Shown: positions 1 to 44,945 of the stretch, one piece after another | Position numbering within the stretch: position 1 is the stretch's first letter | Layout: each line of letters starts with the position of its first letter | Source: an uncultured virus (IMG/VR IMGVR_UViG_3300043256_000464) | Lineage: Duplodnaviria; Heunggongvirae; Uroviricota; Caudoviricetes | DNA length: 56,095 nt | IMG/VR virus record: IMGVR_UViG_3300043256_000464 | Direction: 5' to 3' (one strand) | Position numbers and translations under genes: made by a program | Notes under the pieces: generated by a model | Seen by the model: only the letters and a program-made list of their open reading frames with translations | Told to the model about the DNA's origin: nothing | The model's database searches: none

Positions 1-715
1 GACCGCCATGTTTAATGATTCCATCTGGAACGACTTGAACCCAGAGGCTTTTCACATATGAATTGTGATTAGCCTGAACACCTTTCTTGCGTTTTTTCCA
101 TTTACCACCGCATACACCAGCATAGGAACGCGAATTTCCAAGCGTAGGTCTTCTGCTGGTCTTGGGATGTAACCGGAATGCTTTAACAATATGAAGGATT
201 CTAAACAGACTCGCGGGGCCTAAACCGGGGATATCATCGCAAAGATGCACAATGCCAGGATGTGTTTTTCGTGCCAAGCCCACAACTCTCCGTCGCAATC
301 TATCGCGTGCTTTTGATGGCCCATCCACGAGAAGTTGGACATATTCCTCCGGCATACCATTCCTTACAAGATGCGATGCCTGCCCCTTACGACGATTCGA
401 ATCTTTGCTAAGAGCCGTCTCTATTCGTACCATTACCCAAAGCTCATCTATGTCATTGGGCTTATAAAGAGAACCATAATTGGGAGCATCGGAGAGCTTG
501 CCTTCAAATCGATGGGTGCCGATAAAATCACCCGATTTTTCTGGAGGATTGCAATCTGGACAAGACCAAAGAATGTTATCTTCCTCAGATCCACCACTAG
601 CTTGCCGGGGGATAATATGAGCTTTCTGACCATATGCCAATTCGCATTTGATTCCACAAGATTGGCAAATGCCTTTGTCGCGTTTGTATATTTCTTCTCG
701 TGTATTTTTATTCAT
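1..715 (-). CDS. HNH nuclease fused to a Nop/IS110-Tnp-like domain (TasH-like), 3'-truncated at the window edge
   Basis: Manual translation from ATG 715 is open for 238 codons: IYKRDKGICQSC...AHIIPRQASGGSEEDNILWSCPDCN (HNH), helical linker, then HPGIVHLCDDIPGLGP...RPTLGNSRSYAG...KRKKGVQANHN. Confidence 0.75.
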   Translation of the reverse strand, partial: MNKNTREEIYKRDKGICQSCGIKCELAYGQKAHIIPRQASGGSEEDNILWSCPDCNPPEKSGDFIGTHRFEGKLSDAPNYGSLYKPNDIDELWVMVRIETALSKDSNRRKGQASHLVRNGMPEEYVQLLVDGPSKARDRLRRRVVGLARKTHPGIVHLCDDIPGLGPASLFRILHIVKAFRLHPKTSRRPTLGNSRSYAGVCGGKWKKRKKGVQANHNSYVKSLWVQVVPDGIIKHGG

Positions 716-727
716 TTACGATGACAA

Positions 728-783
728 GGGCGCGGCAGAGGAAGGCACGGGTAATCATTGGATCTATGGGTATTGCCGCGCCC
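728..783 (-). ncRNA. 10-bp hairpin enclosing a 36-nt TIGR-like guide unit
   Basis: GGGCGCGGCA/TGCCGCGCCC stem; minus-strand loop ATACCCA-TAGATCCAA-TGATTACCCG-TGCCTTCCTC; 12 nt upstream of the ATG at 715. Confidence 0.45.
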
Positions 784-801
784 GTTACATTCTAAGCTAA
801 A

Positions 802-1773
802 TCAAGGAGATTTGCCTAGTTCAGACTTCACCATAATCTCAACCAACTCCTCAAAACTGGTCTTGGGCATCCATCCCAACTTCTTACGCGCTTTGCTTGC
901 ATCACCACAAAGTTCCCGAACTTCGGCGGGGCGTTTTAGGGCTTCACTATCCCATTCGACTTGAGAACGACTTTTACCAACATGCGCCAAAGCCAAATCC
1001 AAGAATTCTCCAACCGAGTGCGTTTCCCCAGTCGCAATCACATAATCATCTGGTTCGTCCTGCTGAAGCATCAACCACATCGCTTCAACATAATCAGGCG
1101 CGTAGCCCCAATCTCGTTTTGCATCAAGCGACCCAAGCTCAAGCGTTTTGCCTGTTCGTTTGATCCGAACCACGCCTTGGGCAATTTTCCGAGTCACAAA
1201 TTCTATTCCCCTTCTTTCGGATTCGTGATTGTACATAATTCCGCCAACCACAAACATCCCAAACGACTCTCGGTAAATATTGACAAGCCGATGCGATGCT
1301 AACTTGGATAAACCATATGGTGAACATGGAGTCATGCGAGTTTCTTCATTTTGAGGTAGAGGTTGGTTTCCGTACATCTCTGATGAGGAGGCTTGATAAA
1401 TGCGTGGAAGCGCACGACCTTTAATTTGACGACAAACATCAAGTAGTTTCAGAAAGCCGAGAAAATTGACCTCGTTGGTGTGTATAGCTTGATTCCATGA
1501 AGCACCAACGAATGACTGGGCGGCCAAATTATAGATTTCTGTGGGATGAGCGGTTTCTATAACATGTCTCAATGAACCACTGTCTGTCATCTCCCCCTCA
1601 ACTAGCTTGAAAGACTGGTTGTTTAGAATGCTAGCTAGATTTCCAAGGTGCTTAAGGGATCGATGACGGATCATGCCTATGACTTGGTAGTTTTTAACTA
1701 GGAGAAATTTTGCGAGGTAAGAACCATCCTGGCCTGCTACGCCCGTAACAAGTGCCACTTTGTTCGTCGGCAT
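802..1773 (-). CDS. gmd: GDP-mannose 4,6-dehydratase
   Basis: ALVTGVAGQDGSYLA, YNLAAQSFV, YQASSSEMYG, SPYGLSK, NHESERRG-FVTRK, RDWGYAPDYV; start moved to ATG 1773 after GGAG. Confidence 0.93.
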   Translation of the reverse strand: MPTNKVALVTGVAGQDGSYLAKFLLVKNYQVIGMIRHRSLKHLGNLASILNNQSFKLVEGEMTDSGSLRHVIETAHPTEIYNLAAQSFVGASWNQAIHTNEVNFLGFLKLLDVCRQIKGRALPRIYQASSSEMYGNQPLPQNEETRMTPCSPYGLSKLASHRLVNIYRESFGMFVVGGIMYNHESERRGIEFVTRKIAQGVVRIKRTGKTLELGSLDAKRDWGYAPDYVEAMWLMLQQDEPDDYVIATGETHSVGEFLDLALAHVGKSRSQVEWDSEALKRPAEVRELCGDASKARKKLGWMPKTSFEELVEIMVKSELGKSP

Positions 1774-1883
1774 GTATGTTCTCCAAATAAATGGGTGACT
1801 AAATACAATTGAGTTTAGCATTAATAAGGAAGTCCCACAACTACGGCGAAGACAGCCATGCCCTATATGGTACACTTTAACCT

Positions 1884-2204
1884 ATGACTCAAACAGACGC
1901 CATTGAGCAGGCCGTCAAGGAGATCAAAAAATGGGGCCCACGACGCGTCTTGATTGACAAAGAAGGTAAATCCACTACCCCCGAAAGAGCCAACAGACTT
2001 CAGAACAAACTCCCCGATGTGATTTTTATCAGATCCGATGGATGGACACTAGGAGCAATCAGCGAGCTTGCTGCTGAAGCAGAAGCTCTTTGGAAAAACG
2101 AGTGGATCGCTGTAATGATCAGTCCAATAGACAGACCGATAAGCTATGAGCAATATCAATCTGTCAAAGGCCCGATGGTCGATAAACTGATGAGGAACAA
2201 TTAA
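1884..2204 (+). CDS. Hypothetical protein
   Basis: 106-aa ORF; TGG-TACACT -10-like box 7 nt upstream (leaderless-like). Confidence 0.6.
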   Translation: MTQTDAIEQAVKEIKKWGPRRVLIDKEGKSTTPERANRLQNKLPDVIFIRSDGWTLGAISELAAEAEALWKNEWIAVMISPIDRPISYEQYQSVKGPMVDKLMRNN

Positions 2205-2366
2205 TGGCAAGAAAGAGATCAACAAGAAAGGCAAGTGGACTCCGCTTGCCAGGTGAGGCAAATCTAGTCATTTCTTGTGCTTGTGGCTGCAAATCTCAGT
2301 TCTACAAATACGATCATGTAGGGCGACCGCGCCGTTTTGTGAACGGACACAATAATAAGAAACGGA

Positions 2367-3158
2367 ATGGCTAAAACGACAGCAATTGAGTGGTGCGACG
2401 CCTCGCATAATTTCTGGATGGGCTGTAGCAAAGTATCCGCGGGATGCAAAAACTGTTTCGCAGAACGAGGAATGACCCGTTTTGGAAGAGACTTCTCCAA
2501 GATCACGAGGGCAAAAGGTTTCAGAAAGCCTCTTTCGTGGAAAAAACCTCGAAGCATCCTTGTAAGTTCTTGGACTGATTTCTTCCATGAAGATGTCCCG
2601 ACTGAGTGGCGACAAGAAGCTTGGGAAATAATGTTTTTCTCCCCTCAACACACATTCTTGATCCTAACCAAGAGACCAGAAAATATGAAAGGTATGCTGC
2701 CTGTGGGATGGATCGAGGGCATGTGGAAGCGCAGCCGCCATATCTGGCTAGGCGTAAGCGCAGAAAATCAGGCAATGGCCAACCTGCGGATTCCGAAACT
2801 GCTGGAGATTCCGGCGCAGGTGCATTTCGTGAGCGCGGAACCATTGCTTGCTCCGATAGATTTCTCAAGATGGTTGCGATTCCAAAGACCGGAGTATAGG
2901 TCGGCAATCGGAATACCGACAGATGCTCCAGCGGTTCCGCCGATTGATTGGATCATCACGGGCGGCGAGAGCGACCTGCGTAATCCGAGGGCGATGGATC
3001 TGGATTGGGTAGCAGACATCCGCGACCAATGCCAAGAGGCGGGAGTCGCATTCTTCCACAAACAAATGGGCGGCTCTAGTAAGTGTAAGTGCCACGGCGC
3101 GTGGGGTTGCAGGTTATTGGGTGGGCGAACATGGGGAGAGTTTCCCGATGGACGGTAG
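2367..3158 (+). CDS. DUF5131 (phage Gp37/Gp68) family protein
   Basis: TAIEWCD..NFWMGCSKVSAGCKNCFA, ILTKRP, WLGVSAENQ, SAEPLL, DWIITGGES, FFHKQMGG. Confidence 0.9.
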   Translation: MAKTTAIEWCDASHNFWMGCSKVSAGCKNCFAERGMTRFGRDFSKITRAKGFRKPLSWKKPRSILVSSWTDFFHEDVPTEWRQEAWEIMFFSPQHTFLILTKRPENMKGMLPVGWIEGMWKRSRHIWLGVSAENQAMANLRIPKLLEIPAQVHFVSAEPLLAPIDFSRWLRFQRPEYRSAIGIPTDAPAVPPIDWIITGGESDLRNPRAMDLDWVADIRDQCQEAGVAFFHKQMGGSSKCKCHGAWGCRLLGGRTWGEFPDGR

Positions 3159-3477
3159 AGGCAAACATGGTGAGCACGCTAGGGGTCCTGACCATCCTCG
3201 ATGGAATGAGGATCGCAAGATCGCCAGCACCGGATACGTGAAAGTACGTGTTGGCCGATCCCATCCGCTTGCTGATCCCAATGGTTACTGCTATGAACAT
3301 CTTCTTGTATGGACTTCTGCTGGTTTGGAACCTCCTGGCCCCGATGAACTATTGCATCATAAGAACGGACGGAAGACCGATAACAGGATCGAAAACCTAG
3401 GAAAGATGATTAGGTCCGATCACTCTAAGTTGACTAGCGAGAAGATACCCAGGGAACAGGGAAGGTTTTCTAATTGA
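3148..3477 (+). CDS. HNH homing-type endonuclease
   Basis: GYVKV..HPLA..GYCYEH...LHHKNGRKTDNRIENL; ATG 3148 after GGGGAG. Confidence 0.85.
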   Translation: MDGRGKHGEHARGPDHPRWNEDRKIASTGYVKVRVGRSHPLADPNGYCYEHLLVWTSAGLEPPGPDELLHHKNGRKTDNRIENLGKMIRSDHSKLTSEKIPREQGRFSN

Positions 3478-3569
3478 GCAAGATAGATGGCGCGTGGGGC
3501 GGGCGCGCTTTGGATGGCCGCACATGGGATGAGATCCCGGAAAGGAAGCCACATGAAGTTCGTTCCTGA
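3477..3569 (+). pseudogene. Orphan duplicate of the DUF5131 3' end
   Basis: Reads SKIDGAWGGRALDGRTWDEIPERK..* versus the active SKCKCHGAWGCRLLGGRTWGEFPDGR*. Confidence 0.75.
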
Positions 3570-3593
3570 GGATATGAACGAGGGACAGGATTG

Positions 3594-5276
3594 ATGGCAA
3601 AGTCTACTCGACTGAAGCTAGCGCCGCAGCTCACATTCCCAGCAGATGCCATTACCAGAACATTTGGTATCTTGGCTGTACGTGGTGCGGGCAAGTCCAA
3701 CACCGCTACTGTCATGGCCGAAGAAATGTATAAGGCAGGTCTTCCCTTCGTAGTCATTGATCCCGAAGGAAGCTGGTGGGGACTCCGTTCTGCTACAGAT
3801 GGCCGGTCCCCTGGCTTGTCTATTCCAATCCTAGGCGGTCGGCACGGCGATATTCCGCTGGAACGGCAGGGCGGAGCATTGGTTGCTGATCTAATCGCCG
3901 ACACCCGATTGTCCTGCGTGCTAGACTTGGACGGTTTTGAATCCGAGGCGGCGCGCAAACAATTCCTGCTGGATTTTGCTCAACGGCTTTATCGGAAGAA
4001 CACCGATCCACTTCATCTGTTTTTGGAAGAAGCAGATGACTATATTCCGCAGAAACCAATGAAGGATGAAACGCGCCTGCTCAGGGCTTGGGAAAACATT
4101 GTGCGCCGCGGCCGTAAGCGTGGTTTGGGCATGACTATGATTTCCCAACGTAGCGCGGTAATCAACAAAAATGTCCTGACGCAGGTAGAAACATTGATCG
4201 TCATGCGCACCACGGGTCCCCAGGACCGCAAGGCTATTCAGGCATGGGTTGACTATCATGGACAGAGTCGTGAAATTCTCGATTCGCTACCTGAACTCGA
4301 AGATGGCGAAGCATGGATTTGGTCCCCGCAGTGGTTGAAAAAGACCGTACGCGTCCAGATCAGAATGCGAGAAACCTTTGACAGCGGCGCAACCCCCAGT
4401 CATCGGAAAAGCAATCGGCCCGCCGCCGCCCTAGCAGATGTTGATCTGGCTGAATTCCAAACGCGCATGGCTGAAACCATTGAGCGAGCGAAAGCAGAAG
4501 ATCCGAAGGAATTGAAACGGATGATTGGCAAGCTTCAGGCTCAATTGACCAGAGCCAAGAAAGCAAAACCCGAAGTAGAGGTACGAACACAGGTAATTGA
4601 ACGTCCGGTATTGCAAGATGAAGATACAAAAGCATTGAAAACTGTGGCCGAGCAATTACAGATCATAGCTAACAATATTGTTCAGGCCCTTGACGGCTTC
4701 GATAGCCAGAAGGCGCAGACAGTCGTTCCGATGTCGCCCAAGACACCAGTCCGCGATCTAACCCAGCGGAAGCCAAAAGCCGCCGCCGAGCTACAACAGG
4801 ATATGGACAATCTCGGTCGAGGCGAACACAAGATTCTGACCGCGGTCGCACAACATCCGGAGGGTTGTACCCGAACGCAAATCACCGTTCTGACTGGATA
4901 CAAGCGGTCAAGCCGCGACACCTATCTTCAGCGACTTTTATCAGCAGGACTGATTGAAAAACAGAGAGGACGGCTGGCCTGCACGCGTCTCGGCATCGAG
5001 GTATTGGGCTCGCGTTATGAACCTTTACCCACTGGATACGATCTGCAAACCTACTGGCTGGGGCGTTTGCCCCGAGGCGAAAGTATCATCTTGCAGGAAT
5101 TAATTAACGCCTATCCCGAAGCCATCCATCGCGAAATCCTGAGCGAAACCACGGGATACAAACGATCCAGCAGGGATACATATCTGCAACGGCTAGTTGC
5201 CCGCGAACTGATTGACCGGATGGAAGGAAGTATGGTCAAAGCAAATGATCTGTTATTTTCAGTCCCCGAAAGGTAG
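3594..5276 (+). CDS. HerA/FtsK-like ATPase with two C-terminal winged-helix repeats
   Basis: Walker A AVRGAGKS, VVIDPEG, FLEEAD, RRGRKRG, ISQR; TGYKRSSRDTYLQRL occurs twice. Confidence 0.8.
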   Translation: MAKSTRLKLAPQLTFPADAITRTFGILAVRGAGKSNTATVMAEEMYKAGLPFVVIDPEGSWWGLRSATDGRSPGLSIPILGGRHGDIPLERQGGALVADLIADTRLSCVLDLDGFESEAARKQFLLDFAQRLYRKNTDPLHLFLEEADDYIPQKPMKDETRLLRAWENIVRRGRKRGLGMTMISQRSAVINKNVLTQVETLIVMRTTGPQDRKAIQAWVDYHGQSREILDSLPELEDGEAWIWSPQWLKKTVRVQIRMRETFDSGATPSHRKSNRPAAALADVDLAEFQTRMAETIERAKAEDPKELKRMIGKLQAQLTRAKKAKPEVEVRTQVIERPVLQDEDTKALKTVAEQLQIIANNIVQALDGFDSQKAQTVVPMSPKTPVRDLTQRKPKAAAELQQDMDNLGRGEHKILTAVAQHPEGCTRTQITVLTGYKRSSRDTYLQRLLSAGLIEKQRGRLACTRLGIEVLGSRYEPLPTGYDLQTYWLGRLPRGESIILQELINAYPEAIHREILSETTGYKRSSRDTYLQRLVARELIDRMEGSMVKANDLLFSVPER

Positions 5277-5284
5277 CAAATAAA

Positions 5285-5560
5285 ATGGACGAAATGGATA
5301 GCCCGAACATAGGCGACTTAGCGGTCTGGACCGTCATCAATCCACCCCGCAGCCCATATTTGTTTCCGGTTAATTCTCCGAAAGAAGCCAAGCAAATGAT
5401 CAATCAGTTAGCTTGGGCCATGTCCACAACCGACGCAATTTCAGTCAATGCTTTTGGCTTGGTCGAATGGGATGGCGAGGAATGGACAGAATGGCATAGC
5501 GAAGAGGGTGAAGATATCGACGAATGGGAAGGCATGACAGACTCTATCCCTGCAAGTTAA
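5285..5560 (+). CDS. P22 gp17-like (superinfection-exclusion-related) small protein
   Basis: LAVW...P..FPVNSPKEA..MI..LA...NAFGL..W...WTEW pattern, recalled from memory. Confidence 0.5.
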   Translation: MDEMDSPNIGDLAVWTVINPPRSPYLFPVNSPKEAKQMINQLAWAMSTTDAISVNAFGLVEWDGEEWTEWHSEEGEDIDEWEGMTDSIPAS

Positions 5561-5579
5561 ATAATGAGGTGTGATATAG

Positions 5580-5855
5580 ATGGGACGGAGAAAGACCAAG
5601 CCAAACAAATATTTCATAATTCTGAACAATCCAGACGGATGCTTACAAATCGGACGCCAGTTCAGAAAGGGAGACTTTGTCAATAGTCTAATCGATGGTC
5701 GATGGCCTAATGGCCTTAAAGTGAGAAACGAAAATGGTCGCATATTCACTGTAAGACATCGCAAAACTAAAAGACATTGCCTTGTCTCCGGTAACGGCGA
5801 AATTTATGAAATCATAGCGAATGCCCAGATCAGGAAAAAGGAGAGGGCCAAATGA
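5580..5855 (+). CDS. Hypothetical basic protein
   Basis: GAGGTG RBS; stop overlaps the next start. Confidence 0.6.
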   Translation: MGRRKTKPNKYFIILNNPDGCLQIGRQFRKGDFVNSLIDGRWPNGLKVRNENGRIFTVRHRKTKRHCLVSGNGEIYEIIANAQIRKKERAK

Positions 5856-6241
5856 CAGGACCGGCAACACAGCAACAGGATAAACCTCACGGTGCAGGAG
5901 AAGCCATTGTTGATATAGTGATCCGCGATTTGAAAGAGCGGAAAAAATTCGGAACTCAGAAATATGGTGAGCCTCTTAAAGCCTTCAATGGTCGCAATCC
6001 ATTAGTCGATCTCTATCAGGAATTAATTGACGCTCTTGTTTACGTTAGACAACACTTGGAAGAGGACAGAGAGAGTGAAATCGGAATACTTCAATCCATG
6101 TTGAGAACAGCAGCCGAGAACGCGTACATGAAGTTAACTCTCGGGCCTGATCGAAAGCAATTTGCCGACAAAGAAGATTGGATTGAGGCTTGGCTTAATG
6201 GTTTGATCCGATCAGATCCAGAGAAAGGCATTTCTCCCTAA
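5852..6241 (+). CDS. MazG-like all-alpha NTP pyrophosphatase-like protein
   Basis: R..FG..KYG..L...NGR..L.DLYQELIDALVY. Confidence 0.5.
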   Translation: MTGPATQQQDKPHGAGEAIVDIVIRDLKERKKFGTQKYGEPLKAFNGRNPLVDLYQELIDALVYVRQHLEEDRESEIGILQSMLRTAAENAYMKLTLGPDRKQFADKEDWIEAWLNGLIRSDPEKGISP

Positions 6242-10380: not shown

Positions 10381-10619
10381 GTGCAATCAATAAACAGAAA
10401 AAACTTGAAGAGTTCGGCCTAACAGAATGTCCAAAGTGTGGAGAGACCGACTTTTCTGAAACCTTCCATGCTGACTGGGCTGACATTGGTTGGTCAGGAG
10501 ACTTTGAATATGGCACCGCATTGATGTGTGGCCCGAAATGGCTAAAAGGCCAAGAGCATATTCATCGGAAATGCCGAAATTGTGGATATTCACAACTGGA
10601 GAAACCCGCAGATGGATAG
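10377..10619 (+). CDS. Small Zn-ribbon protein
   Basis: CPKC...CRNC; ATGA overlap. Confidence 0.6.
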   Translation: MSAINKQKKLEEFGLTECPKCGETDFSETFHADWADIGWSGDFEYGTALMCGPKWLKGQEHIHRKCRNCGYSQLEKPADG

Positions 10620-11841
10620 CAATACTACTGCGATTAAAATGTTGCACTTCGCAGATGTCCATATCGGCATGGAGAACTATGGCAATATCGATCCGCTAAC
10701 AGGAACCTCGACCAGGGTAGCTGATTTCCTGAATCGGTTGGATGAAGTGATCGACTACGCTATTGAAAACAATGCTGATTTAACTGTCTTTGCCGGAGAT
10801 GCCTTCAAGGATCGAGATCCCGAAATAACACAACAAAGAGAATTCGCTTCTAGGATCAAGCGACTGGCAGCACATTGCCCAACGTTGCTTTTGGTAGGGA
10901 ATCACGACATGCCCGGCCTGGCAGCGAAAGCCAACTCAATGGACATATTCACAGCGCTCGATGTAAACAATGTGATCGTTGGCAATAACCCCGAAGGACG
11001 CGTGATCGAAACCAAGAACGGACCCATCTACTTAGCATGGCTTCCATACCCCATGCGAAACAGGGCGCTGACACCCAAGGAAAGACACGGAAAATCAATC
11101 GACGAAATTGACGTATTGCTGCAACGGGCAATCGTAGAAATTCTCGAACGACTCGCATCAGATGCGTCTAAACACGATATGCCGCGGGTACTATCAGCAC
11201 ATCTTTCCGTGCTAGGCGCTGAATTTGGATCAGAACGATTGGTCATGCTGGGACACGATGCTACTGCACCACTGAAATCCATCTGTGATCCAGTATGGGA
11301 TTATGTCGCTCTGGGACATATCCACAAGCATCAGGTATTGAATGAAGATTCATCCCCCTTGGCAATCTACAGCGGTTCGCTTGAGAGGATCGACTTTGGC
11401 GAGAAGGATGATCCCAAGGGCTTTTGCTGGATCGAACTAGACGGCTCAGAGAATCCATGGCAATTCATCGAGGTAGACTCAAGAAAATTCCTCACGATTA
11501 CTGTCGATATCAAAGAAGGTGAAGACGCTACTTCGATGGTCCTAAACAAGATCGGCCAACTCGATATAGCAGAAAGGGTAGTTAAGTTGATCGTGAAGAT
11601 GTCCCCCAGCCAACAAGCGGACTTCCGAGACGCTGAAATTACGTCAGTGCTTTCAGAAGCATTTAACACAACCGTCGAACGCAGAGTGGAAAGCGAGATC
11701 AGGACCAGACTGGGAGACCTGGAACCAGAGCGACTGTCACCTATCGAGCTCTTGGGACATTATTTCCAATCGAAAGGCGAGCCGGATGAATCCACCAAAA
11801 TCCTGCTCGATAAAGCCAAAACCATAATGGACCTATCATGA
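10612..11841 (+). CDS. sbcD: SbcD/Mre11-family nuclease
   Basis: LHFADVHIG, FAGDAF, VGNHD, SAH, YVALGHIH, YSGSLERIDFGE. Confidence 0.93.
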   Translation: MDSNTTAIKMLHFADVHIGMENYGNIDPLTGTSTRVADFLNRLDEVIDYAIENNADLTVFAGDAFKDRDPEITQQREFASRIKRLAAHCPTLLLVGNHDMPGLAAKANSMDIFTALDVNNVIVGNNPEGRVIETKNGPIYLAWLPYPMRNRALTPKERHGKSIDEIDVLLQRAIVEILERLASDASKHDMPRVLSAHLSVLGAEFGSERLVMLGHDATAPLKSICDPVWDYVALGHIHKHQVLNEDSSPLAIYSGSLERIDFGEKDDPKGFCWIELDGSENPWQFIEVDSRKFLTITVDIKEGEDATSMVLNKIGQLDIAERVVKLIVKMSPSQQADFRDAEITSVLSEAFNTTVERRVESEIRTRLGDLEPERLSPIELLGHYFQSKGEPDESTKILLDKAKTIMDLS

Positions 11842-13919
11842 TAATCAAACAGATCGACATGACCAATTTCCTTGCCTACAAAGATCCTGGTCCGCTATCG
11901 CTAGAGGGAATGCATATAGCGTGTTTGACTGGAGACAATGGGGCAGGAAAATCGTCTATTTTGGACGCGGTAACTTGGGCGATTTGGAATAAGGCACGCG
12001 GGAGTTCCGTTGACGATCTGGTGCGCTCGGGCGAAGACGAGATGAATGTTTCGGTAGTTTTTGAGCAAACCGAGAAAATCTACCGCGTGACAAGACAAAG
12101 AAAGATTTCAGGACGCGGGACATCGGGCCTGTCACTTGAGGTGAAGCTTGAAGATGACTGGGTAAATGCAACCGAAGCAACCATACGCGATACCCAATCC
12201 AAGATCGAAAGAATCCTGCGGTTGGACTACAACACTTTTGTCAATTCAGCTTACATCGCTCAAGGAAAAGCTGACGAATTCACCAACAAGACTCCTGCGC
12301 AAAGAAAAGAAATCCTTTCGGAAATCCTAGGACTCTTTATCTGGAAGCAGTTCGAGGACAAGGCCAAGGAACTCGAGAAGAACGTTTTAGACAAGGGCAG
12401 ATCAATTGAATCGAACTTAAGCGAGATTGAGCCAGAGCTTTCGAAACGAGATTCGTACAAAACTAATTTGGAAAGCGCCCAGGAGGATGCCAAGCAAGCT
12501 GCGATCGCTTTAGAAGAACTAGAGGCACAGTGGCAATCAGTCGAAGCAGCACGTGCCGAGATTAAGTCAACAAAGGAACTCATACGAGGTTCTGAAAAGA
12601 ATCTTATTTCGGCCCAGCGCGAGCTGAAAGATGCAGAGCAAGAATTGAAACGGTTGCAAGGCTTGATGGATACCGAAACCATCAAATCGGAGCTGGAGAG
12701 CGTTCGAGGACAGATGACTGAATATGAAGAGGTCGAAGCCAATCTGTTGGTGCTGGAAACACATATCAAAACGGTTCAACTTGATATAGCTGAATTCAAT
12801 GCAAACAAAAATTCAGTCAAACAGAGAGCCGAAGAACTCAAACAGAAGCTAGCCAAGGTGGAAAACCTAGCTGCAGAGTGTCCTGTATGTGGACAAGAAC
12901 TATCCGAGGATCACAAGACAAAGGTGGTCTCTGAGTTCAATTCACGGATAGAACAGCTCAGATCAGAGTATCGTTCTTTTCAAGACGGCGCTCAAAACAA
13001 ATCTGATGAATTAAAGCCACTTAATGATGAGGCCAAAGAAGTCCGCGCGACACTGGCAGAACGCGAACAAGCCTCAAAAAGGATCGGCGTATTAGAGCAA
13101 AAACTTTCTCAGGCATCCGAGGCAGCCAAGGCAATTGAGAATATCGAATCAAAACAAGAACACTGGCAGACTGAGATAGGAACCGCGCAGTCTGAAACCG
13201 GTTCATCCAAAGAAAAGCTTGCTGAGCTCGAAAAAACTTTGGAATCAGATATCGACGAAAACCGTGTCAAAAGCGCGCGTTCTCTCAAGCAGTCAGCCGA
13301 TATTAGCCTAGGCGTAGCTAAAGAGAAAATGGACAACCTAACGAAGCTTGAGAAAAGATACGCTCAGCTCAAGATTGATTTTTCTGACTTGCAGACTGAA
13401 AGAGAGATCTATACAAAACTCAAAGAGGCGTTTGGAAAGAAAGGCGTTCCAGCAATGATCATAGAGACCGCCGTTCCCGAATTAGAGGAATCGGCCAATT
13501 CGCTACTATCGAAGATGACTGACGGACGCATGTCCATCGTCATAGAAACCCAAAAGGAAATCAAGTCAGGTGAACTGCGCGAGGCGCTTGATATAGTCAT
13601 CTCAGATCAGCTCGGACAACGGCCTTATGAGAATTATTCGGGCGGGGAGGCTTTTCGAATCAACTTCGCTATCCGGATAGCACTTTCCAAATTGCTCGCT
13701 CGTAGAGCGGGAGCACAATTGCGGAGCTTGTTCATTGATGAAGGGTTCGGTAGCCAGGATGCGCAAGGAAGGCAAAAGCTGGTTGCTGCCATCAATGACA
13801 TACAAAATGACTTTGACCTCATCTTGGTGATAACGCATATCGATGAGTTAAAAAACGCTTTTCCGGATCGCATCAATGTCACGAAGACTCCAAGTGGATC
13901 TGAATTCCTGCTCAGCTAA
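11838..13919 (+). CDS. sbcC: SbcC/Rad50-family SMC ATPase
   Basis: GDNGAGKS, coiled coils with CPVC hook, YSGGE, FIDEGFG, VITH. Confidence 0.93.
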   Translation: MIIKQIDMTNFLAYKDPGPLSLEGMHIACLTGDNGAGKSSILDAVTWAIWNKARGSSVDDLVRSGEDEMNVSVVFEQTEKIYRVTRQRKISGRGTSGLSLEVKLEDDWVNATEATIRDTQSKIERILRLDYNTFVNSAYIAQGKADEFTNKTPAQRKEILSEILGLFIWKQFEDKAKELEKNVLDKGRSIESNLSEIEPELSKRDSYKTNLESAQEDAKQAAIALEELEAQWQSVEAARAEIKSTKELIRGSEKNLISAQRELKDAEQELKRLQGLMDTETIKSELESVRGQMTEYEEVEANLLVLETHIKTVQLDIAEFNANKNSVKQRAEELKQKLAKVENLAAECPVCGQELSEDHKTKVVSEFNSRIEQLRSEYRSFQDGAQNKSDELKPLNDEAKEVRATLAEREQASKRIGVLEQKLSQASEAAKAIENIESKQEHWQTEIGTAQSETGSSKEKLAELEKTLESDIDENRVKSARSLKQSADISLGVAKEKMDNLTKLEKRYAQLKIDFSDLQTEREIYTKLKEAFGKKGVPAMIIETAVPELEESANSLLSKMTDGRMSIVIETQKEIKSGELREALDIVISDQLGQRPYENYSGGEAFRINFAIRIALSKLLARRAGAQLRSLFIDEGFGSQDAQGRQKLVAAINDIQNDFDLILVITHIDELKNAFPDRINVTKTPSGSEFLLS

Positions 13920-28449: not shown

Positions 28450-29808
28450 TCAATCTCCATCGTCACTTTTCCCGCCCATTATCACAATAGCTGGTTTCAT
28501 CTCGGCGACCGTTCTGACAAGAATTCCTTCTTGCTTTTCCATCACGCGATTGATGTCTTTGTAAGCAAACGGGCTTTCATCCGGAGCTACGCCAATATGC
28601 AGCACGTCCCATTCCTTCATATGCTCATCGAATTGATCTTTGACAAATCGTTGTTTGGCTTCGGTTCGGCTGAAAGGTCTTCCGGCTCCATGTGCTGAGG
28701 ATTTCAAACTGGTTTCCTCGGCTAGGCCCTCCACTAGATATGACATTGCACCGCTCGATCCAGGAATGATTCCAACTTGCCCCGCGTCAGCCGGTGTAGC
28801 ACCTTTACGATGAATCACCGAATCGTCTTCCAGCCAAGCAAAGTTGTGATGATTTTCGTGACGCACTACCTGGCTGATACCGCTTCGTTTTAAGAAATGG
28901 TCATGAATTAATTCGTGATTGGCCTGAGCATACAAACCCATGAGCTGCATTGCCATCCAATACTCGCGACCAGCGTCATTGTCCAGACTCAACCACGCAT
29001 AACCTTTCGGAATCCCACTGGCCACGTTCCTTGTGTAATCCTTGGCAACTTGCTGATAGTAGCTTGCTATCTTGTGTCCTGTGCCTCGTGAACCCGAATG
29101 AGTCATGATCGCAACAAACTGATCACCGACATCGAGAGAATGCCAGTATGTTCGCTTTGTTACGGTCCCGATCAAAGCATCAAAAAAGTGATTTCCCCCA
29201 CCGGAAGAACCTAACTGTCTAGCAGCCTTTTCCTTGAGCTGTTTGGCAATTTTGATTTCTTCCCAGCGCGGGTCCTCCATGATTTCGTGTTCGCGACGTT
29301 CGCTATTCGCGAACCCCGAATTCAATCCGAAGCTAGAAACTGCGCTCATGTCCTTGGCAATCTTCTCGCGGTTGGCCATGAATTCTTTAGGCGAGATGTG
29401 TAAAATAGTGAGCATCATTCGACAAGCAATGTCATATCCAACAAATGAAGGGCTTACAGCCCTGTGGAGCGCAGCAACACCGCCAATGGGCATCCCATAA
29501 CCCTTATGGGCATCGGGCATTAGAGCTCCCCTAATGGCCACTGGCAAGCGCATTACTGTATTGATCTGTTCGTAAGACGCGTAATCGATATCGGTTCCAA
29601 GATCTCCGAACATCGCTATGGGCTTGGCTTTTTCCAGAAGACTAGGACGCGCTTTACCAAGATCAAATTCGCTGCGGACAATCTCGATAATTATCTTGGG
29701 ATCGGTGCCATCTTTCCCTAACTGCGCAGCTCTCTTGGCTATAGAACCGTAATCATACGCGGGGGAGGGAACAATTCCAGCCGAACGAAGAAGCTTATTG
29801 GTATCCAT
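28450..29808 (-). CDS. rtcB: RtcB RNA ligase
   Basis: MPDAHKGYGMPIGG, VGYDIAC, GGGNHF, HSGSRG, HHN, HRKGAT, HGAGR, DESP.AYK; ATG 29808 after AAGGA. Confidence 0.93.
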   Translation of the reverse strand: MDTNKLLRSAGIVPSPAYDYGSIAKRAAQLGKDGTDPKIIIEIVRSEFDLGKARPSLLEKAKPIAMFGDLGTDIDYASYEQINTVMRLPVAIRGALMPDAHKGYGMPIGGVAALHRAVSPSFVGYDIACRMMLTILHISPKEFMANREKIAKDMSAVSSFGLNSGFANSERREHEIMEDPRWEEIKIAKQLKEKAARQLGSSGGGNHFFDALIGTVTKRTYWHSLDVGDQFVAIMTHSGSRGTGHKIASYYQQVAKDYTRNVASGIPKGYAWLSLDNDAGREYWMAMQLMGLYAQANHELIHDHFLKRSGISQVVRHENHHNFAWLEDDSVIHRKGATPADAGQVGIIPGSSGAMSYLVEGLAEETSLKSSAHGAGRPFSRTEAKQRFVKDQFDEHMKEWDVLHIGVAPDESPFAYKDINRVMEKQEGILVRTVAEMKPAIVIMGGKSDDGD

Positions 29809-30025
29809 AGATAATTCCTTTGCGAGACGACGCCGGATTTTCACCGACAGGAGCCTTCAGCCGCACCCTCCCAGGCAGCTCCAGGTGGACAACAGAGTCG
29901 GGTCATTTCGCAGGAGGGGGTTCACCGTCCCATGCTCTAGGAACTTATCGTCTCGCATTCAAATGAATCAGAGAAATCGATGTGCATTGTGTTCGGACTA
30001 ATTGACCCTCCATCAATTTCTCCAG

Positions 30026-30104
30026 TGGAGATGGCGGGATTCGAACCCGCGTTCCGCTCTGATCGCTTTTAGCGACTTCTGAGCGGGCGTAGCCTTTCAT
30101 CCCC
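30026..30104 (-). ncRNA. Mini tmRNA-like RNA (tRNA-like domain only, Ala identity)
   Basis: GGGGATG/CATCTCC-A acceptor stem with G3.U70; T arm GCGGG-TTCGAAT-CCCGC; no D stem; short interrupted hairpin instead of an mRNA-like domain. Confidence 0.7.
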
Positions 30105-30274: not shown

Positions 30275-31033
30275 CTAACTACCCGGTGGTTCGGTTTTTT
30301 CCTTCAATATTTTGTGCATCTTTCGATAGGCTTCGATTGTTTTGCCGTGTTCTTTTTCCTTCTCGCGAATCCAACCCGCCGCCTCGCTTTGCGTCATTTC
30401 GACATCTTCAACCGCGAAGCTAAAGAGCATTGTGCGTGCTTCTATTGGAGTAGGTTCTTTGTCTGGTTTATTATCGTCCGAAGGATCAGCACTGGTTTCG
30501 GTTTCGGTTTCTTTCCCACGCTCCCCACCACCACTTTGAACAAACCTTCGTATCGCTTCTTGTGGTTCTTCCCACCATTTAACAAACTTGATATCGTTTC
30601 CAGCTTGGCGCACTTTACATTTTACGCGCAATTTAGGGATGTCTCTAAGATCTCTGCCAATCCCCCATTGACGGGCCGCTCTTTTTAGAGCTGATGTGAC
30701 TTCCTCTTTTTGTGGTTGGCTGGACTTCTTTTCATTGTCAGAGCCGATATCCCAGCGCCATAACCACTCCTGGGTATCCGGATTAAAAATACCAACACCC
30801 ACAGCTACGGTGTTGCAGGTGTCGATAATTTGCGATTGCCAACCGAATGCGCCACAAGCTTCGTCTAGTCGATTTTCTACAAAATGAGAACTGATGTATG
30901 GAATTGCAATGGCTGTCGGACCATCGTTTCCTCCGGCCTTTAGGACTCCGCGTGGCAAAAAATGAATTGACTTTAGAGGAGTTGGAGCTTGCAGAACTTC
31001 TAGAATTTCTTGTGCAGTTTTGTTGTCTGTCAT
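30275..31033 (-). CDS. Rad52/Rad22-family single-strand annealing protein
   Basis: PYI....V.NRLDE.CG..GWQ...SALKRAARQWGIGRDL. Confidence 0.8.
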   Translation of the reverse strand: MTDNKTAQEILEVLQAPTPLKSIHFLPRGVLKAGGNDGPTAIAIPYISSHFVENRLDEACGAFGWQSQIIDTCNTVAVGVGIFNPDTQEWLWRWDIGSDNEKKSSQPQKEEVTSALKRAARQWGIGRDLRDIPKLRVKCKVRQAGNDIKFVKWWEEPQEAIRRFVQSGGGERGKETETETSADPSDDNKPDKEPTPIEARTMLFSFAVEDVEMTQSEAAGWIREKEKEHGKTIEAYRKMHKILKEKTEPPGS

Positions 31034-41309: not shown

Positions 41310-44300
41310 TCATGCCGTCCAAACAAAGTGCAAGGCTTTGACATTAAAACCAAGGTTGTCTGGTCCTCCGATTGTTCCTATATCTCGAATCCAAGCAGCC
41401 ATTCCATCGATGAATGAAAACCCCTGATCTACTGACAAGTAGAGACGATTTTCACTTGAATCGCCTACGTGAATCGCGGCCATGATATCTGGATTCGTTC
41501 TGTGCCATTCAATGGGATATACATTGTTGTCGCCACCCAAGCTTGGAAACTGGTGTCTTGGAAGCCACGAGACAACACCGCCATCTACGCCATCTGTAGC
41601 AAAGAACAACACGTGCCTTACTACTCCACTGATTGGCCTCATCAACGATGCAACTAGAAGACGATTTCCATACCAAGTTGCTATATTCGGACGCCCGTCT
41701 CCATCGCTTAAATCATTAGAGGTAGGCGGCAGCCATTGAATTCCATCAAATAGCGGAGTGATAATTGTTTTGGTAGCAAATCTGTCTTTGGTTATATAGA
41801 CATTTCCAGGCCCACCAGCATCTTCTTCGGACCAATATGCTATGAGATCGGCTGGGTTTGCATTGAAAGGCACGTGGAGCTGGCCAATGCGTTGCGATGT
41901 CCCTGTGTCGTATACTTCTGACCAACTAACCCCCTGAACATTTGTGTACCAGATTTCTCTTCCGAGTTGACCCAAAACAAGCGCTTCTTGAATAGATTTT
42001 TCTGAAACGAGCATTGGAGGAAGCGACGCATCGCGAGCGCCTACTTCATTTGATACATCTACCCAAGACCCACCTCCGTCAGTGGATTTTATAACCCTTA
42101 CATCGCCAAAAGCACTTGCGGTTCTTCCTTTAACGTAGATGATGTTTGAGTTGATCGGACTGATGCTTATCGAATCGGCATTGGTCCCTCCTGCCTCTCC
42201 AACAATCGTGTTTGCCCATATTGTGGGATTCAAAAGTTCTGTATACGACTGGGTTCCAGTGATGCCGTTCAAATCATTGATTCGATAAAGCCACGGTCCA
42301 TCTGGAGGCACCGACCCTATTCCTATGTTGGTTAGCAAAAAGGCTGTATTTGCCGGATCGTTTGGATCAAGATGAAACGAAGTGAATGAACCAGTTACTC
42401 CACTTGGGTCCCACTCAGGAGTAAGATTTTCCCAGGTTGATCCAGTGGCGCGCCCTGAAGCGAAGTCAGTGCTTCTGGTTAATCTGTTCGATGTTACAAG
42501 ATAGATAATATTGCCAACGCCTTCGGGCGGGATGATCGGCGGAACGATTGGATTGGGTGGAATAATTGGTGGGAAGTCTATGTCCCAATCCGGAAGAATT
42601 CTGCGATCGTATGGTGGATCGACTGGAATTATGACGGTATCCCCAGGAGGCCCGTGAGTTTCTTCCGACACAACCATATCCATCAACAACGACTGTCTGG
42701 ATGGGTTCCAGCGGTAAGTAATTGCCTGTGGAATGAACGGTTTCTGATTCCAGACTATTCTTCGGAAAGTCTCATCCTCAGCGACCGTCATTTCAACTCG
42801 CTGTTGTGGGGCTATATCAAGAAAACGATATTCGCCAGCTAGAGGAATGCGCACTTTTGGATACAAAGCGTTTCTCTGTGCCCACGTCAGCCCAGCTAAT
42901 TCGTTGACTTGATCCTGATCAACGATGACAAGACCGCTGGCTCGCTGCACCGATCCAAAATATTCAGGGGCTTCGCCCGGAGCTCCTGAGAGATAGGCAT
43001 CAAAAGTGCCAGTTGTTGCCCCCGAGTAGGCTATTCCACCCAGTTCGATATAAGCCAAATCAGCATGCGGATCGCGCTCAATGGCAATCTCTCTTCGCCA
43101 ATCCTGGCGAGTTATTCCGATGACGTTTTGCATCACGTCGTTGGCTTGTCTGGAGCTCCCGGTCGTAAGAATATTTGCGTCAAGTTCACACCACAACTTT
43201 CCCTGCCTGTCCGAAACCATGGATGCCATGAGACTGCTTTGGAGTAAACCATTCATGGCCTCATAGATATTCCCTCTGCCAAAGTCAACGAATTCAACAC
43301 GCTTCATATCGTTGGTTTGAGAGAAGTCGGCCACAGCCAGGACAGTTGATTGCCACCGCAAGAAATGAACTATGGCCCGGTCGATAGTCATCTCTCGCAT
43401 GTCTGTCCAAGCCATCGCGCTCCGCTTGTCGTCCAATGCAGTCGAGAATGTGCTTAACTCTCCCATCCGGATCGATACGCTACCAACTTTAAAATCGACC
43501 ACGCTTGTTACTGGATCGTAGCGAATCGAATCCTCTAGGACGTATCCAACAAACAGTGTCGAATCCCTGTTTTCGGCATTAGCTCCTACCTTAGTTTCGA
43601 CATAACCTTCCCAGTCTTCTGAGAAAACTACGACCAAAGCACCATCTACGATTTCGTCTACACCAACCACATCTCGGACCCAAATTCTGGCGTTATAGCC
43701 ACCCTGCCCCCTCTCGCCGTCAAGACTCCGAAGCCCCCAACGATAGTAGGGTTTGCATGAACCGGGATCTTCAGGACGGGTAAGGACCTGAATATGCCTA
43801 CGTCCTGTAAAGGAATCGCCCTGATTATTTGTTATCTCAAGCGACGTGACGAAATATCCACATCCCGTGTACGTGACCATCCCCGGATGTGCAGCGGTGG
43901 AGCCGGTTGGATCGCCCCCCTCAAAGTGCCAGTCGTAAGATGACAATCCACCGCCAGGGGTGGGATCGAAACTACCGGAGGATGTGTACCAAACCAAACT
44001 TGTTCCACTAGGGGCAGGGGAAAGGAAGCTCGCAGAATTAGGACCCAAACAGACAACAGGTTCCATGTCTTGATTCTGACCGGTATAAGGAATATCCCAG
44101 TCCTTAAAAAACACCGGAACATTGTCAGCATCGAGTACGATCCTAGGAAAAACCCCCCACGGCTCGAAATATCGGACGACTGTCAAATACCATCCATCCA
44201 CCCAGTTTATGGAATTCTCTGCTACGGTAATTTGAGATGAAGTGGCACTCCGAACCCTAATCCTTCCAAGTTCCTTTCCGTCTGAAACTGTTGAGATGAA

Positions 44301-44495
44301 ACAGGTCTCGCCACCAACAATCAGACCAGCATCGCCACTCAACGCGGTTACGTTGATGTCTTGAGCAGCCTTAGAGATTCCGGCCTGGTTGATCTGCGCG
44401 GAGAAGATGACCCGAGGCCGGAATATCCCAAGCCACAGACGCGTTCTATGAGGGCGTGTTCGCAATTGAGAAAGTTGAGTAGGCGTTAAATTCAT
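41310..44495 (-). CDS. Large tail/baseplate protein (PKD-like and BNR-like repeats)
   Basis: SYDWHFEGGDP (PKD-like), Pro-rich linker, KSTDGGGSW and SVDQGFSF Asp-box-like motifs. Confidence 0.65.
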   Translation of the reverse strand: MNLTPTQLSQLRTRPHRTRLWLGIFRPRVIFSAQINQAGISKAAQDINVTALSGDAGLIVGGETCFISTVSDGKELGRIRVRSATSSQITVAENSINWVDGWYLTVVRYFEPWGVFPRIVLDADNVPVFFKDWDIPYTGQNQDMEPVVCLGPNSASFLSPAPSGTSLVWYTSSGSFDPTPGGGLSSYDWHFEGGDPTGSTAAHPGMVTYTGCGYFVTSLEITNNQGDSFTGRRHIQVLTRPEDPGSCKPYYRWGLRSLDGERGQGGYNARIWVRDVVGVDEIVDGALVVVFSEDWEGYVETKVGANAENRDSTLFVGYVLEDSIRYDPVTSVVDFKVGSVSIRMGELSTFSTALDDKRSAMAWTDMREMTIDRAIVHFLRWQSTVLAVADFSQTNDMKRVEFVDFGRGNIYEAMNGLLQSSLMASMVSDRQGKLWCELDANILTTGSSRQANDVMQNVIGITRQDWRREIAIERDPHADLAYIELGGIAYSGATTGTFDAYLSGAPGEAPEYFGSVQRASGLVIVDQDQVNELAGLTWAQRNALYPKVRIPLAGEYRFLDIAPQQRVEMTVAEDETFRRIVWNQKPFIPQAITYRWNPSRQSLLMDMVVSEETHGPPGDTVIIPVDPPYDRRILPDWDIDFPPIIPPNPIVPPIIPPEGVGNIIYLVTSNRLTRSTDFASGRATGSTWENLTPEWDPSGVTGSFTSFHLDPNDPANTAFLLTNIGIGSVPPDGPWLYRINDLNGITGTQSYTELLNPTIWANTIVGEAGGTNADSISISPINSNIIYVKGRTASAFGDVRVIKSTDGGGSWVDVSNEVGARDASLPPMLVSEKSIQEALVLGQLGREIWYTNVQGVSWSEVYDTGTSQRIGQLHVPFNANPADLIAYWSEEDAGGPGNVYITKDRFATKTIITPLFDGIQWLPPTSNDLSDGDGRPNIATWYGNRLLVASLMRPISGVVRHVLFFATDGVDGGVVSWLPRHQFPSLGGDNNVYPIEWHRTNPDIMAAIHVGDSSENRLYLSVDQGFSFIDGMAAWIRDIGTIGGPDNLGFNVKALHFVWTA

Positions 44496-44509
44496 GATAT
44501 ATTCACATC

Positions 44510-44572
44510 GGGATTGTGCCTAAAAGCCATGTACCAAGAGAAACCCAAGTCAAGTGAGCGAGGCGCAATCCC
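44510..44572 (+). ncRNA. Solitary TIGR-like guide unit in a 12-bp hairpin
   Basis: AGCCA-TGTACCAAG-AGAAACCCA-AGTCAAGTG-AGCG (36 nt, 44525-44560) inside GGGATTGTGCCT/AGGCGCAATCCC, followed by TCTTTT. Confidence 0.6.
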
Positions 44573-44576
44573 TCTT

Positions 44577-44945
44577 TTATTCAATGACGATGTTGTGGAT
44601 AAGCAACACAACGCTTCTCGGATATGTCTCAAAAAACTGTCCAATGCTCGGTTCTGCCATCGTGCAACCACTGTATTCACGAAAGGCGTATGGCGATCCA
44701 GTGATAGTAGGGAATTCAGGAAGCCTAGCCGTTACGGTTCCACTCGACTCAATGTCTCGATAGTTGGCTTGTAGTGTTGCCCACTCTTCGGATGATGTAA
44801 GCTGATATCGCAACTCAAAGCTTCGGACGCCTGGATAAATTGGCCGATTGTCGCCCTGGACATCCAATGGGCGGCGCGGAAGCCACCTGCCAGTCGTAGG
44901 TTCAAGAATTCGATTACCGTTGATTTGCCAGTCACCGTATGACAT
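44577..44945 (-). CDS. Distal-tail-like protein
   Basis: Position after tape measure; size. Confidence 0.45.
   Translation of the reverse strand: MSYGDWQINGNRILEPTTGRWLPRRPLDVQGDNRPIYPGVRSFELRYQLTSSEEWATLQANYRDIESSGTVTARLPEFPTITGSPYAFREYSGCTMAEPSIGQFFETYPRSVVLLIHNIVIE

What the first reader, a model, noticed from the sequence alone, without database searches (positions are those of the whole stretch)
44510..44578. Solitary TIGR-like guide in its own hairpin, antisense inside the tail operon, 44 kb from the nuclease
Seen: the intergenic 36-mer AGCCA-N9-AGAAACCCA-N9-AGCG enclosed by a 12-bp stem. The stem has a G.U pair on + but a C/A mismatch on -, and a TCTTTT tail follows. It matches the edge-repeat/9-nt spacer/loop-repeat/9-nt spacer layout of tigRNAs as I recall it, but as one stem-closed unit like a box C/D sRNA. 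Inference: dispersed, singly encoded guides acting in trans with the TasH-like protein, an array-free TIGR variant. By analogy with IS110 bridge loops the target would be TGTACCAAG-CACTTGACT; I saw no full match in the window.
Basis: partly seen in the sequence, partly recalled or inferred. Interest (0 to 1): 0.88.

Follow-up and report, generated by a model that had tools for sequence, protein, structure and literature searches.

The report
Lone phage guide-RNA targeting kin's gene
A phage carries a tiny stand-alone guide-RNA gene wedged between two tail genes; its guide spells a version of the neighbouring gene that the phage's own copy escapes by three letters, which suggests a way to cut related phages and perhaps to spread itself into them.

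Summary
The element is real. It is a single TIGR guide unit (AGCCA-8+R-AGAAACCCA-8+R-AGCG) in a 12-bp stem behind a promoter-like site, in an 81-nt insert between two tail genes that nearly abut in 26 of 30 relatives. Two relatives carry a unit at the same site, with the same repeats but different spacers and stems. Read as 8+8, the guide matches this phage's own tail gene 525 nt away, except for one codon at the cut site (Leu in self, Gln in the guide). This holds across the family: 7 of 8 units have a 2-3-mismatch copy in their own neighbourhood. Overall 8 of 23 solitary units do so, against 10 of 440 array units. One relative without the cassette has a perfect target for another unit. Best reading: guide-only cassettes that cut kin alleles next door, spare their carrier and probably home, like viral CRISPR mini-arrays and intronless homing. 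Not shown: expression, cleavage, a perfect target for this guide, and the effector. The window's TasH has its own guide with other D boxes, and a complete relative has three units but no detectable Tas.

The parts
44475..44503 (+). sigma70-like promoter (TTGAGT-17-TATATT, TG before the -10), overlapping the start codon of the minus-strand tail gene; would start the RNA near 44510
   Evidence: 4 found vs 2.5 expected in 2 kb, so weak alone; a TG-TACAAT site lies at the same place in G001; in L175 a TATAAT is seen by eye but the scan did not call it
44510..44521 (+). 5' arm of the 12-bp closing stem
44525..44529 (+). 3' half of edge repeat, AGCCA, with box C (CCA)
   Evidence: identical to dual-repeat array consensus
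44530..44537 (+). spacer A (8 nt); 44538 is the semi-conserved purine
   Evidence: 8 of 8 match to 43985-43992
44539..44547 (+). loop repeat AGAAACCCA (box D AG, box C CCA)
44548..44555 (+). spacer B (8 nt); 44556 is the semi-conserved purine
   Evidence: 5 of 8 match to own allele, mismatches at B4-B6
44557..44560 (+). 5' half of edge repeat, AGCG (box D AG)
44561..44572 (+). 3' arm of the closing stem
44573..44578 (+). short T tract after the stem, overlapping the stop codon of the upstream minus-strand gene; possible 3' end, not called as a terminator
43985..44000 (+). the phage's own, mismatched copy of the predicted 16-bp target (13 of 16; one codon, Leu in self vs Gln in guide), inside the large tail gene; the only site with 3 or fewer mismatches in the window
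41310..44495 (-). 1061-aa tail-region gene, downstream flank and target gene; no Pfam or PHROG hit
44577..44945 (-). 122-aa tail-region gene, upstream flank; its 3' end is the near-target of the units in G001 and L175
2..715 (-). divergent TasH-like gene (HNH with H33/N47/N56 + coiled coil + Nop fold), cut by the window edge; full length 311 aa (P0004); candidate effector
728..783 (-). second stem-closed dual-spacer unit (10-bp stem; CCA/CCG box C, TG box D) directly upstream of tasH, with TAGAAT at 794-789; no convincing target found

Best explanation
A guide-only TIGR cassette aimed at kin. The 81-nt insert makes its own ~65-70-nt RNA (inferred from promoter, stem and T tract); the closing stem would remove the need for array processing (inferred). 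Loaded in trans on a Tas dimer with 8+8 pairing, it directs a cut in the orthologous copy of the neighbouring tail gene of a co-infecting close relative that has the Ser-Gln-Val-Trp-Tyr-Thr allele. The carrier is spared because its copy differs at B4-B6, across the predicted cut site. Repair of the relative's break from the carrier's genome would copy the resistant allele and, with co-conversion over about 0.5 kb, the cassette: RNA-guided intronless homing of a guide without its nuclease. Shown: anatomy, insertion polymorphism, spacer and stem turnover, near-self targets, one perfect target in a cassette-free relative (for another unit). Inferred: expression, cleavage, homing, and the effector (the window's TasH at roughly even odds; otherwise a Tas from another phage).
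For: Orthologous site: unit in the window, G001 and L175, same orientation, different spacers, stems and insert lengths; short gap in 26 of 30 scored relatives, 4 long inserts of which 1 has a unit. The three carriers are not one clade (26 rows, p-AU 0.0028). Near-self 16-mer with 3 or fewer mismatches within 1 kb: 8 of 23 solitary vs 10 of 440 array units (Fisher p 3e-7); none of the 23 has 0-1 mismatch. In this phage family 7 of 8 units have one, 38-540 nt away. Array spacers show no genome-wide self-likeness (64 units, 7 genomes, observed like shuffled). At coding sites the guide spells a plausible allele: all differences silent for L175, L177 and L203; amino-acid changes for the window (Leu/Gln), G001 (two) and L171 (one of two codons). 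Gln is the commonest residue at the window's site (6 of 27 orthologues). The L203 guide has a 16 of 16 target in the orthologous gene end of L206, which lacks a unit there; its own allele has 3 silent mismatches and the other 10 rows have 6-10. SpTasH uses 8-nt spacers and adjacent double mismatches abolish cleavage (bioRxiv 2026.08.11.744272).
Against: No perfect target for this guide was found: among 27 orthologues the best are 3 mismatches (own allele and 3 others), and none of 28 exact IMG/VR hits is in a related gene. The relatives at hand are only 47-67% identical in protein, too far for a fair test. No Tas was detected in G001, G002 or G004, which carry units. The window's TasH has its own unit with TG D boxes, unlike the AG boxes here. 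One family unit (G001 95520) has no near target. Of 8 new solitary-looking units from the later scan of other viruses, 0 had a near-self site with 3 or fewer mismatches (some are probably chance pattern hits). The 8+8 geometry was chosen after trying two lengths and three gaps, and three of the units in the Fisher table are the ones on which I noticed the pattern. The L206 match is in a short conserved peptide, so codon chance contributes. No RNA data. Proximity does not prove homing.
Confidence: 0.55

Rival explanations
1. Competition without homing. The unit is the TIGR counterpart of a viral CRISPR mini-array: it destroys or blocks related phages (superinfection exclusion). It sits near its target only because spacers are acquired locally or by recombination, and the cassette does not gain by co-conversion.
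For: The same pattern (nearby target, own copy mutated) is published for viral mini-CRISPR arrays and read as exclusion (PMC6858448; PMC11656645). All near-self evidence fits equally. Promoter-bearing solitary units in other phages have no nearby target (L234, L242, L247).
Against: Exclusion needs no linkage, yet 7 of 8 family units lie within 540 nt of the site. Three unrelated carriers hold different guides at one intergenic site, each aimed at a different nearby sequence.
Confidence: 0.28
2. Self-regulation. The guide brings Tas to the carrier's own partly matched site to bind without cutting and repress late tail genes.
For: Tas binding represses transcription, also when the nuclease is dead. 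Spacer A matches the own site 8 of 8 and engages first in SpTasH. Regulatory CRISPR mini-arrays with partial matches exist.
Against: Sites are mid-gene or at gene ends, not at promoters, and differ between carriers at the same locus. Differences are often silent, as expected between alleles. A perfect match exists in a cassette-free relative. Most relatives do without the insert.
Confidence: 0.08
3. Decoy RNA. A tigRNA mimic that soaks up Tas proteins of competing phages, like RNA anti-CRISPR solitary repeat units.
For: Exact copy of the mature 36-nt dual-repeat consensus; carriers without Tas exist; Racr precedent.
Against: A decoy needs no specific spacers, but these spell a neighbouring allele far more often than array spacers do.
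Confidence: 0.05
4. Chance motif in an ordinary bidirectional terminator-like hairpin.
For: The bare motif is at chance frequency; another relative has a plain hairpin at this site (L171).
Against: 18 of 18 repeat bases match natural arrays; units recur at the orthologous site with new spacers and new stems; near-self target.
Confidence: 0.02

Closest known systems
Dual-repeat TIGR-TasH (SpTasH; Faure et al. 2025, PMC12045711; PMC13421893; bioRxiv 2026.08.11.744272)
   Same: 36-nt unit with edge half, spacer, loop repeat, spacer, edge half; 8+8 targeting; an HNH+Nop protein in the genome
   Different: one unit, no full edge repeats, no array, own promoter-like site and closing stem, 44 kb from tas; this TasH is only 14-20% identical to array-linked Tas and shows no Y/H loop in register
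Stem-loop TIGR arrays (Faure 2025; Xu et al., bioRxiv 2026.09.09.750476)
   Same: dual spacers between C and D boxes, closed by a variable stem
   Different: published units are in arrays within 10 kb of tas, with 9-nt spacing and TG/CG D-box seeds; here solitary, AG boxes, dispersed, and tied to a neighbouring target
Virus-borne CRISPR mini-arrays (Medvedeva et al. 2019, PMC6858448; review PMC11656645)
   Same: guide-only element in a virus, effector in trans, target near the element in a related virus, own copy mutated
   Different: TIGR dual-spacer guide, no PAM, no host Cas; the effector is presumably phage-encoded. That paper leaves the cause of proximity open
Free-standing homing endonucleases, intronless and trans homing in T4 (review PMC2988022; PMC13565253)
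   Same: intergenic insert between conserved genes; cuts the neighbouring gene of relatives hundreds of bp away; self told apart by substitutions
   Different: specificity lies in an ~80-nt RNA gene; the nuclease is unlinked and would not be co-inherited
RNA anti-CRISPR solitary repeat units (as reviewed in PMC11656645)
   Same: solitary guide mimic in a phage
   Different: this unit has two informative spacers with a predicted target

Membership tests
TIGR-Tas (general) | two short spacers each between box C and box D | tested here: met
   CCA...AG twice; identical to array consensus
TIGR-Tas (general) | repeats conserved, spacers variable among homologues | tested here: met
TIGR-Tas (general) | Nop-domain Tas protein in the genome | tested here: met
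   hhalign 81.6%, E 1e-5; 2-sequence profile hits TasR 9MTY at E 3e-4; Atlas model nearest viral PF02371-like clusters, TM about 0.7; Foldseek top 9W04 TasH and VIA Z 15 to 9MTY (that model was built with Tas rows in the alignment, so it is not independent)
TIGR-Tas (general) | guides in a tandem array adjacent to tas | tested here: not met
   single unit 44 kb from tas; one other single unit next to tas; the 3' side of tas is outside the window
TIGR-Tas (general) | target = spacer A + reverse complement of spacer B on opposite strands | tested here: met
   only this geometry at 8+8 gives 2-3-mismatch neighbour matches across units; four control geometries do not do so consistently; 16 of 16 in L206
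TIGR-Tas (general) | RNA is made, bound by Tas, and guides binding or cleavage | not testable with these tools
   needs experiments
Dual-repeat TIGR | full edge repeats, processed by a C-terminal Y/H dyad | tested here: not met
   edge repeats are halves only; the PY...GH loop is not in register in P0001/P0004 (by alignment only)
Stem-loop TIGR | palindromic stem closing the unit | tested here: met
   2 family units (G001 35877, L177) have a downstream hairpin instead
Stem-loop TIGR | CUU motif at the stem base | tested here: inconclusive
   CUCUUUU follows the stem on the 3' side; not scored against the published motif
Viral CRISPR mini-array | CRISPR repeats matching the host's | tested here: not met
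   repeats are TIGR boxes; no Rfam CRISPR hit in the window
Viral CRISPR mini-array | target near the element, own copy mutated | tested here: met
Intronless homing element | optional insert between conserved genes, patchy on the tree | tested here: met
Intronless homing element | encodes its own nuclease at the insertion site | tested here: not met
   81-nt insert holds no gene of its own
Intronless homing element | over-inheritance with co-conversion in mixed infection | not testable with these tools
   needs crosses or dense population data

The most novel reading that the evidence does not exclude
A split, RNA-guided homing system in phages. Guide-only cassettes of about 80 nt are selfish elements in their own right: each sits beside its target gene, is reprogrammed by 16 letters, and drives itself and a resistant allele through the phage population using a Tas nuclease supplied in trans, even by the victim or a third phage. 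This would give TIGR-Tas its first identified natural targets and a function, account for some array-less tas loci, and offer homing as the reason why viral mini-guides lie next to their targets.
Probability: 0.4. Interest if true: 0.93.

Novelty: new variant of a known kind. Interest (0 to 1): 0.83.

Why it matters
The TIGR papers I read state that natural targets, spacer origin and biological role are unknown, and that array-less tas loci are an open question. Their survey took up to 10 kb each side of tas and seeds stem-loops on TG/CG D boxes, so these units would be missed. Here each guide comes with a predicted 16-bp target and a matched resistant allele, which makes function directly testable with one protein, one RNA and two DNA oligos. 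It also bears on the unexplained closeness of viral mini-CRISPR spacers to their targets.

Tried and rejected
9+9 (18-nt) target: no neighbour match. 22 viral hits (16 fixed bases) and 3 genome hits are unrelated to window genes (0 of 25) and about as many as I estimate by chance. Exact 16-mer target: 28 viral hits, 0 related. Relatives of the TasH in viral and metagenome contigs: none confirmed; only 2 other proteins at E<=0.001 among 1.84 billion representatives; GenBank phages match the HNH part only. Flanking-gene family in species genomes: none, so the host is unknown. No RNA holder listed. Contigs laid on 1-6000: one contig runs 670 nt past the left end but its letters are not shown; runs X2 and X3 give almost no cover of 1-800, which is no evidence. 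Single-sequence fold of P0001 was poor (pLDDT 38). Target for the tasH-proximal unit: 30 spacer framings, nothing within 3 kb at 4 or fewer mismatches; a 2-mismatch 18-mer at 6213 needs an uneven 8+10 reading and is kept only as a lead. G005 8283 candidate rejected (4 motif mismatches, no target). Whole records behind the metagenome loci are not held, so Tas presence in the carriers L171, L175, L177 and L203 was checked only in the fetched flanks (none). Tas alignment on five other records with solitary-looking units: 0 of 5. Earlier-findings look-ups by place, words and sequence were empty. Pair counting on the alignment was not done.

Full report
Observation. The + strand folds better than the - strand. 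The loose motif alone is not significant (2 found, 1.33 expected). Motif plus stem is (2 found, 0.15 expected). Of 314 distinct units (the window's included), 303 have a neighbouring repeat in 18-nt register and 11 do not; Tas genes lie beside many of the arrays. So all 18 fixed bases equal the mature dual-repeat tigRNA ends and loop. A sigma70-like site on + ends 7 nt before the stem. Rfam has nothing here.

Setting. The window is a phage genome segment. The unit fills an 81-nt gap (44496-44576) between a 122-aa and a 1061-aa minus-strand gene downstream of a tape-measure-like gene. The ORF at 2-715(-) is cut by the window edge. The full 311-aa protein (P0004) is on record on a contig of 118,095 bp, so about half the genome is probably unseen and 'array-free' cannot be claimed. 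The protein has an HNH domain with His33, Asn47 and Asn56 and a divergent Nop domain. A model built with Tas rows in its alignment matches TasH 9W04 and TasR 9MTY best (not independent). The C-terminal PY...GH loop of array-linked Tas is not in register, which the TIGRFinder preprint ties to stem-loop systems. A second stem-closed unit, with TG D boxes, lies just upstream of its start codon (728-783, -).

The insert is optional and its guide changes. With an alignment of the 122-aa family I fetched 37 loci. I scored 34 (3 partial matches left out); in 30 the next gene was located: 26 have a short gap and 4 a long one, of which L175 holds a unit. G001, a 112.6-kb relative found through the motif scan, has a unit at the same site. 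The window, G001 and L175 share orientation and repeats but have different spacers and unrelated stems, and they do not form a clade (26 rows, p-AU 0.0028). Further solitary units lie at other sites in this family: two more in G001 (one identical in G002), and one each in L171, L177 and L203.

The target. The ninth base before each D box is a purine in 255 and 281 of 309 units, and SpTasH pairs 8+8. Trying 9+9 and 8+8 with gaps of 0-2 over 675 kb, I noticed that three units (G001 orthologous, L175, L177) had 2-mismatch 8+8 sites right beside them. Testing 14 units within 1.5 kb gave 3 mismatches for the window (43985-44000; shuffle p 0.013), G001 35877, L203, L171 and G004; 4 for L046 and L087; nothing for G001 95520, G005 8283, L070 and L038. 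Control geometries gave two scattered 3-mismatch hits and no pattern. Across all AG-type units held, 8 of 23 solitary and 10 of 440 array units have such a site within 1 kb. In this family it is 7 of 8. Against this: 0 of 8 new solitary-looking units from a later scan of other viruses do, the geometry was chosen post hoc, and three discovery units are in the table. Array spacers show no self-likeness genome-wide (64 units in 7 genomes, most but not all of each genome fetched).

The guide spells another allele of the neighbour. In the window the site is the only one with 3 or fewer mismatches in 56 kb. The guide reads Ser-Gln-Val-Trp-Tyr-Thr where the phage has Leu for Gln; the three mismatches pair with B4-B6, where the published C-5 rule places the cut. 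Gln is the commonest residue there (6 of 27 orthologues), but no orthologue is a perfect target; the best are 3 mismatches, shared by the own allele and three others. These relatives are 47-67% identical, so the expected victims, close kin, are not sampled. For L175, L177 and L203 every difference is silent. For L203, the orthologous gene end in L206 is a 16 of 16 target and L206 has no unit there; the 10 other rows besides self have 6-10 mismatches. Collection-wide exact searches for the window's target found nothing related.

Mechanism. The best reading is a guide-only cassette that cuts the neighbouring gene of co-infecting kin and spares its carrier; adjacent double mismatches abolish SpTasH cleavage. 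Because the cut lies 38-540 nt from the cassette, repair from the carrier would tend to copy it, as in intronless homing, where cut sites lie hundreds of bp from the element and co-conversion carries it and self is told apart by substitutions. Homing is inferred, not shown; pure exclusion fits most of the data (0.28). The effector is open. The window's TasH is the simplest candidate, but its adjacent unit has other D boxes. G001 (CheckV 100%, linear), G002 and G004 carry units and no detectable Tas. G003 has an array-linked Tas plus one distant solitary unit. Supply in trans by another phage is therefore likely in at least some cases.

Comparison and novelty. Works like: viral CRISPR mini-arrays, for which nearby targets and mutated own copies are published with the cause of proximity left open, and free-standing homing endonucleases. 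Member of: TIGR by boxes, geometry and protein, but it fails the array criterion. I found no paper on solitary tigRNA cassettes with neighbouring targets or on TIGR homing in searches; most subscription papers are outside this library. Two unchecked earlier notes of this scan report solo units far from an array and kin-like matches of array spacers in other phages; they are leads, seen after my analysis.

What I read. PMC12045711: passages, part 2 of 12, and the Discussion; supplements not seen, and its array alignments may show single units. bioRxiv 2026.09.09.750476: parts 1-6 of 7 and passages; supplements closed, and its unit-count figure may include single stem-loops near tas. bioRxiv 2026.08.11.744272: passages and parts 2-3 of 6. 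PMC13421893: passages and one supplement search. PMC2988022, PMC13565253, PMC11656645, PMC6858448 and bioRxiv 2023.03.03.530964: passages only.

Verdict. Real, a new variant of a known kind, interest 0.83. It turns the open question of what TIGR guides target in nature into a simple experiment.

Noticed in passing
window 728-794 (-): Second stem-closed dual-spacer unit with a TAGAAT -10 box directly upstream of tasH; TG D boxes; probably the gene's own single guide; target not found.
   Followed up: partly
window 43995-43997: The escape codon differs from the guide's codon by an exact reverse-complement swap of three bases; may be coincidence.
   Followed up: no
window 30023-30104 (-): Short Rfam tmRNA-family hit above the gathering score (82 nt), between the RtcB and Rad52/Erf-like genes.
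   Followed up: no
window 6213-6230: 2-mismatch 18-mer to the tasH-proximal unit under an uneven 8+10 spacer reading, at the end of ORF 5852-6241.
   Followed up: partly
G003 4435 (L046) and 56139-57233: A complete 60-kb phage with an array-linked Tas and arrays also has one distant solitary unit whose 11-base near-target lies in the hairpin right behind it.
   Followed up: partly
L234, L242, L247, L087: Solitary units behind promoter-like sequences (seen by eye) in other phages, without a nearby target; no Tas found in the L234 and L247 records.
   Followed up: partly
G017 16597 (L077): Unit with promoter-like site and terminator-like hairpin whose two spacers are almost pure C runs, giving a near-palindromic C/G target.
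   Followed up: no
L171, L183, L189, gap after the 122-aa gene: The same intergenic site holds other inserts: a plain hairpin, and longer stretches of about 190 and 390 nt; an insertion hot spot.
   Followed up: no
L203 2595 and L171 2823: Both have a unit after the same glycosyltransferase gene, in opposite orientations and with different D boxes (AG vs TG): a second shared insertion site.
   Followed up: partly
P0002: Closest relative of the TasH (29% identity) lacks the HNH histidine, so it may be nuclease-dead.
   Followed up: no
window 10582-13919, 28450-29844, 30275-31033: The phage encodes SbcCD-like, RtcB and Rad52/Erf-like proteins; the recombination genes could support break repair of the kind homing needs.
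   Followed up: no
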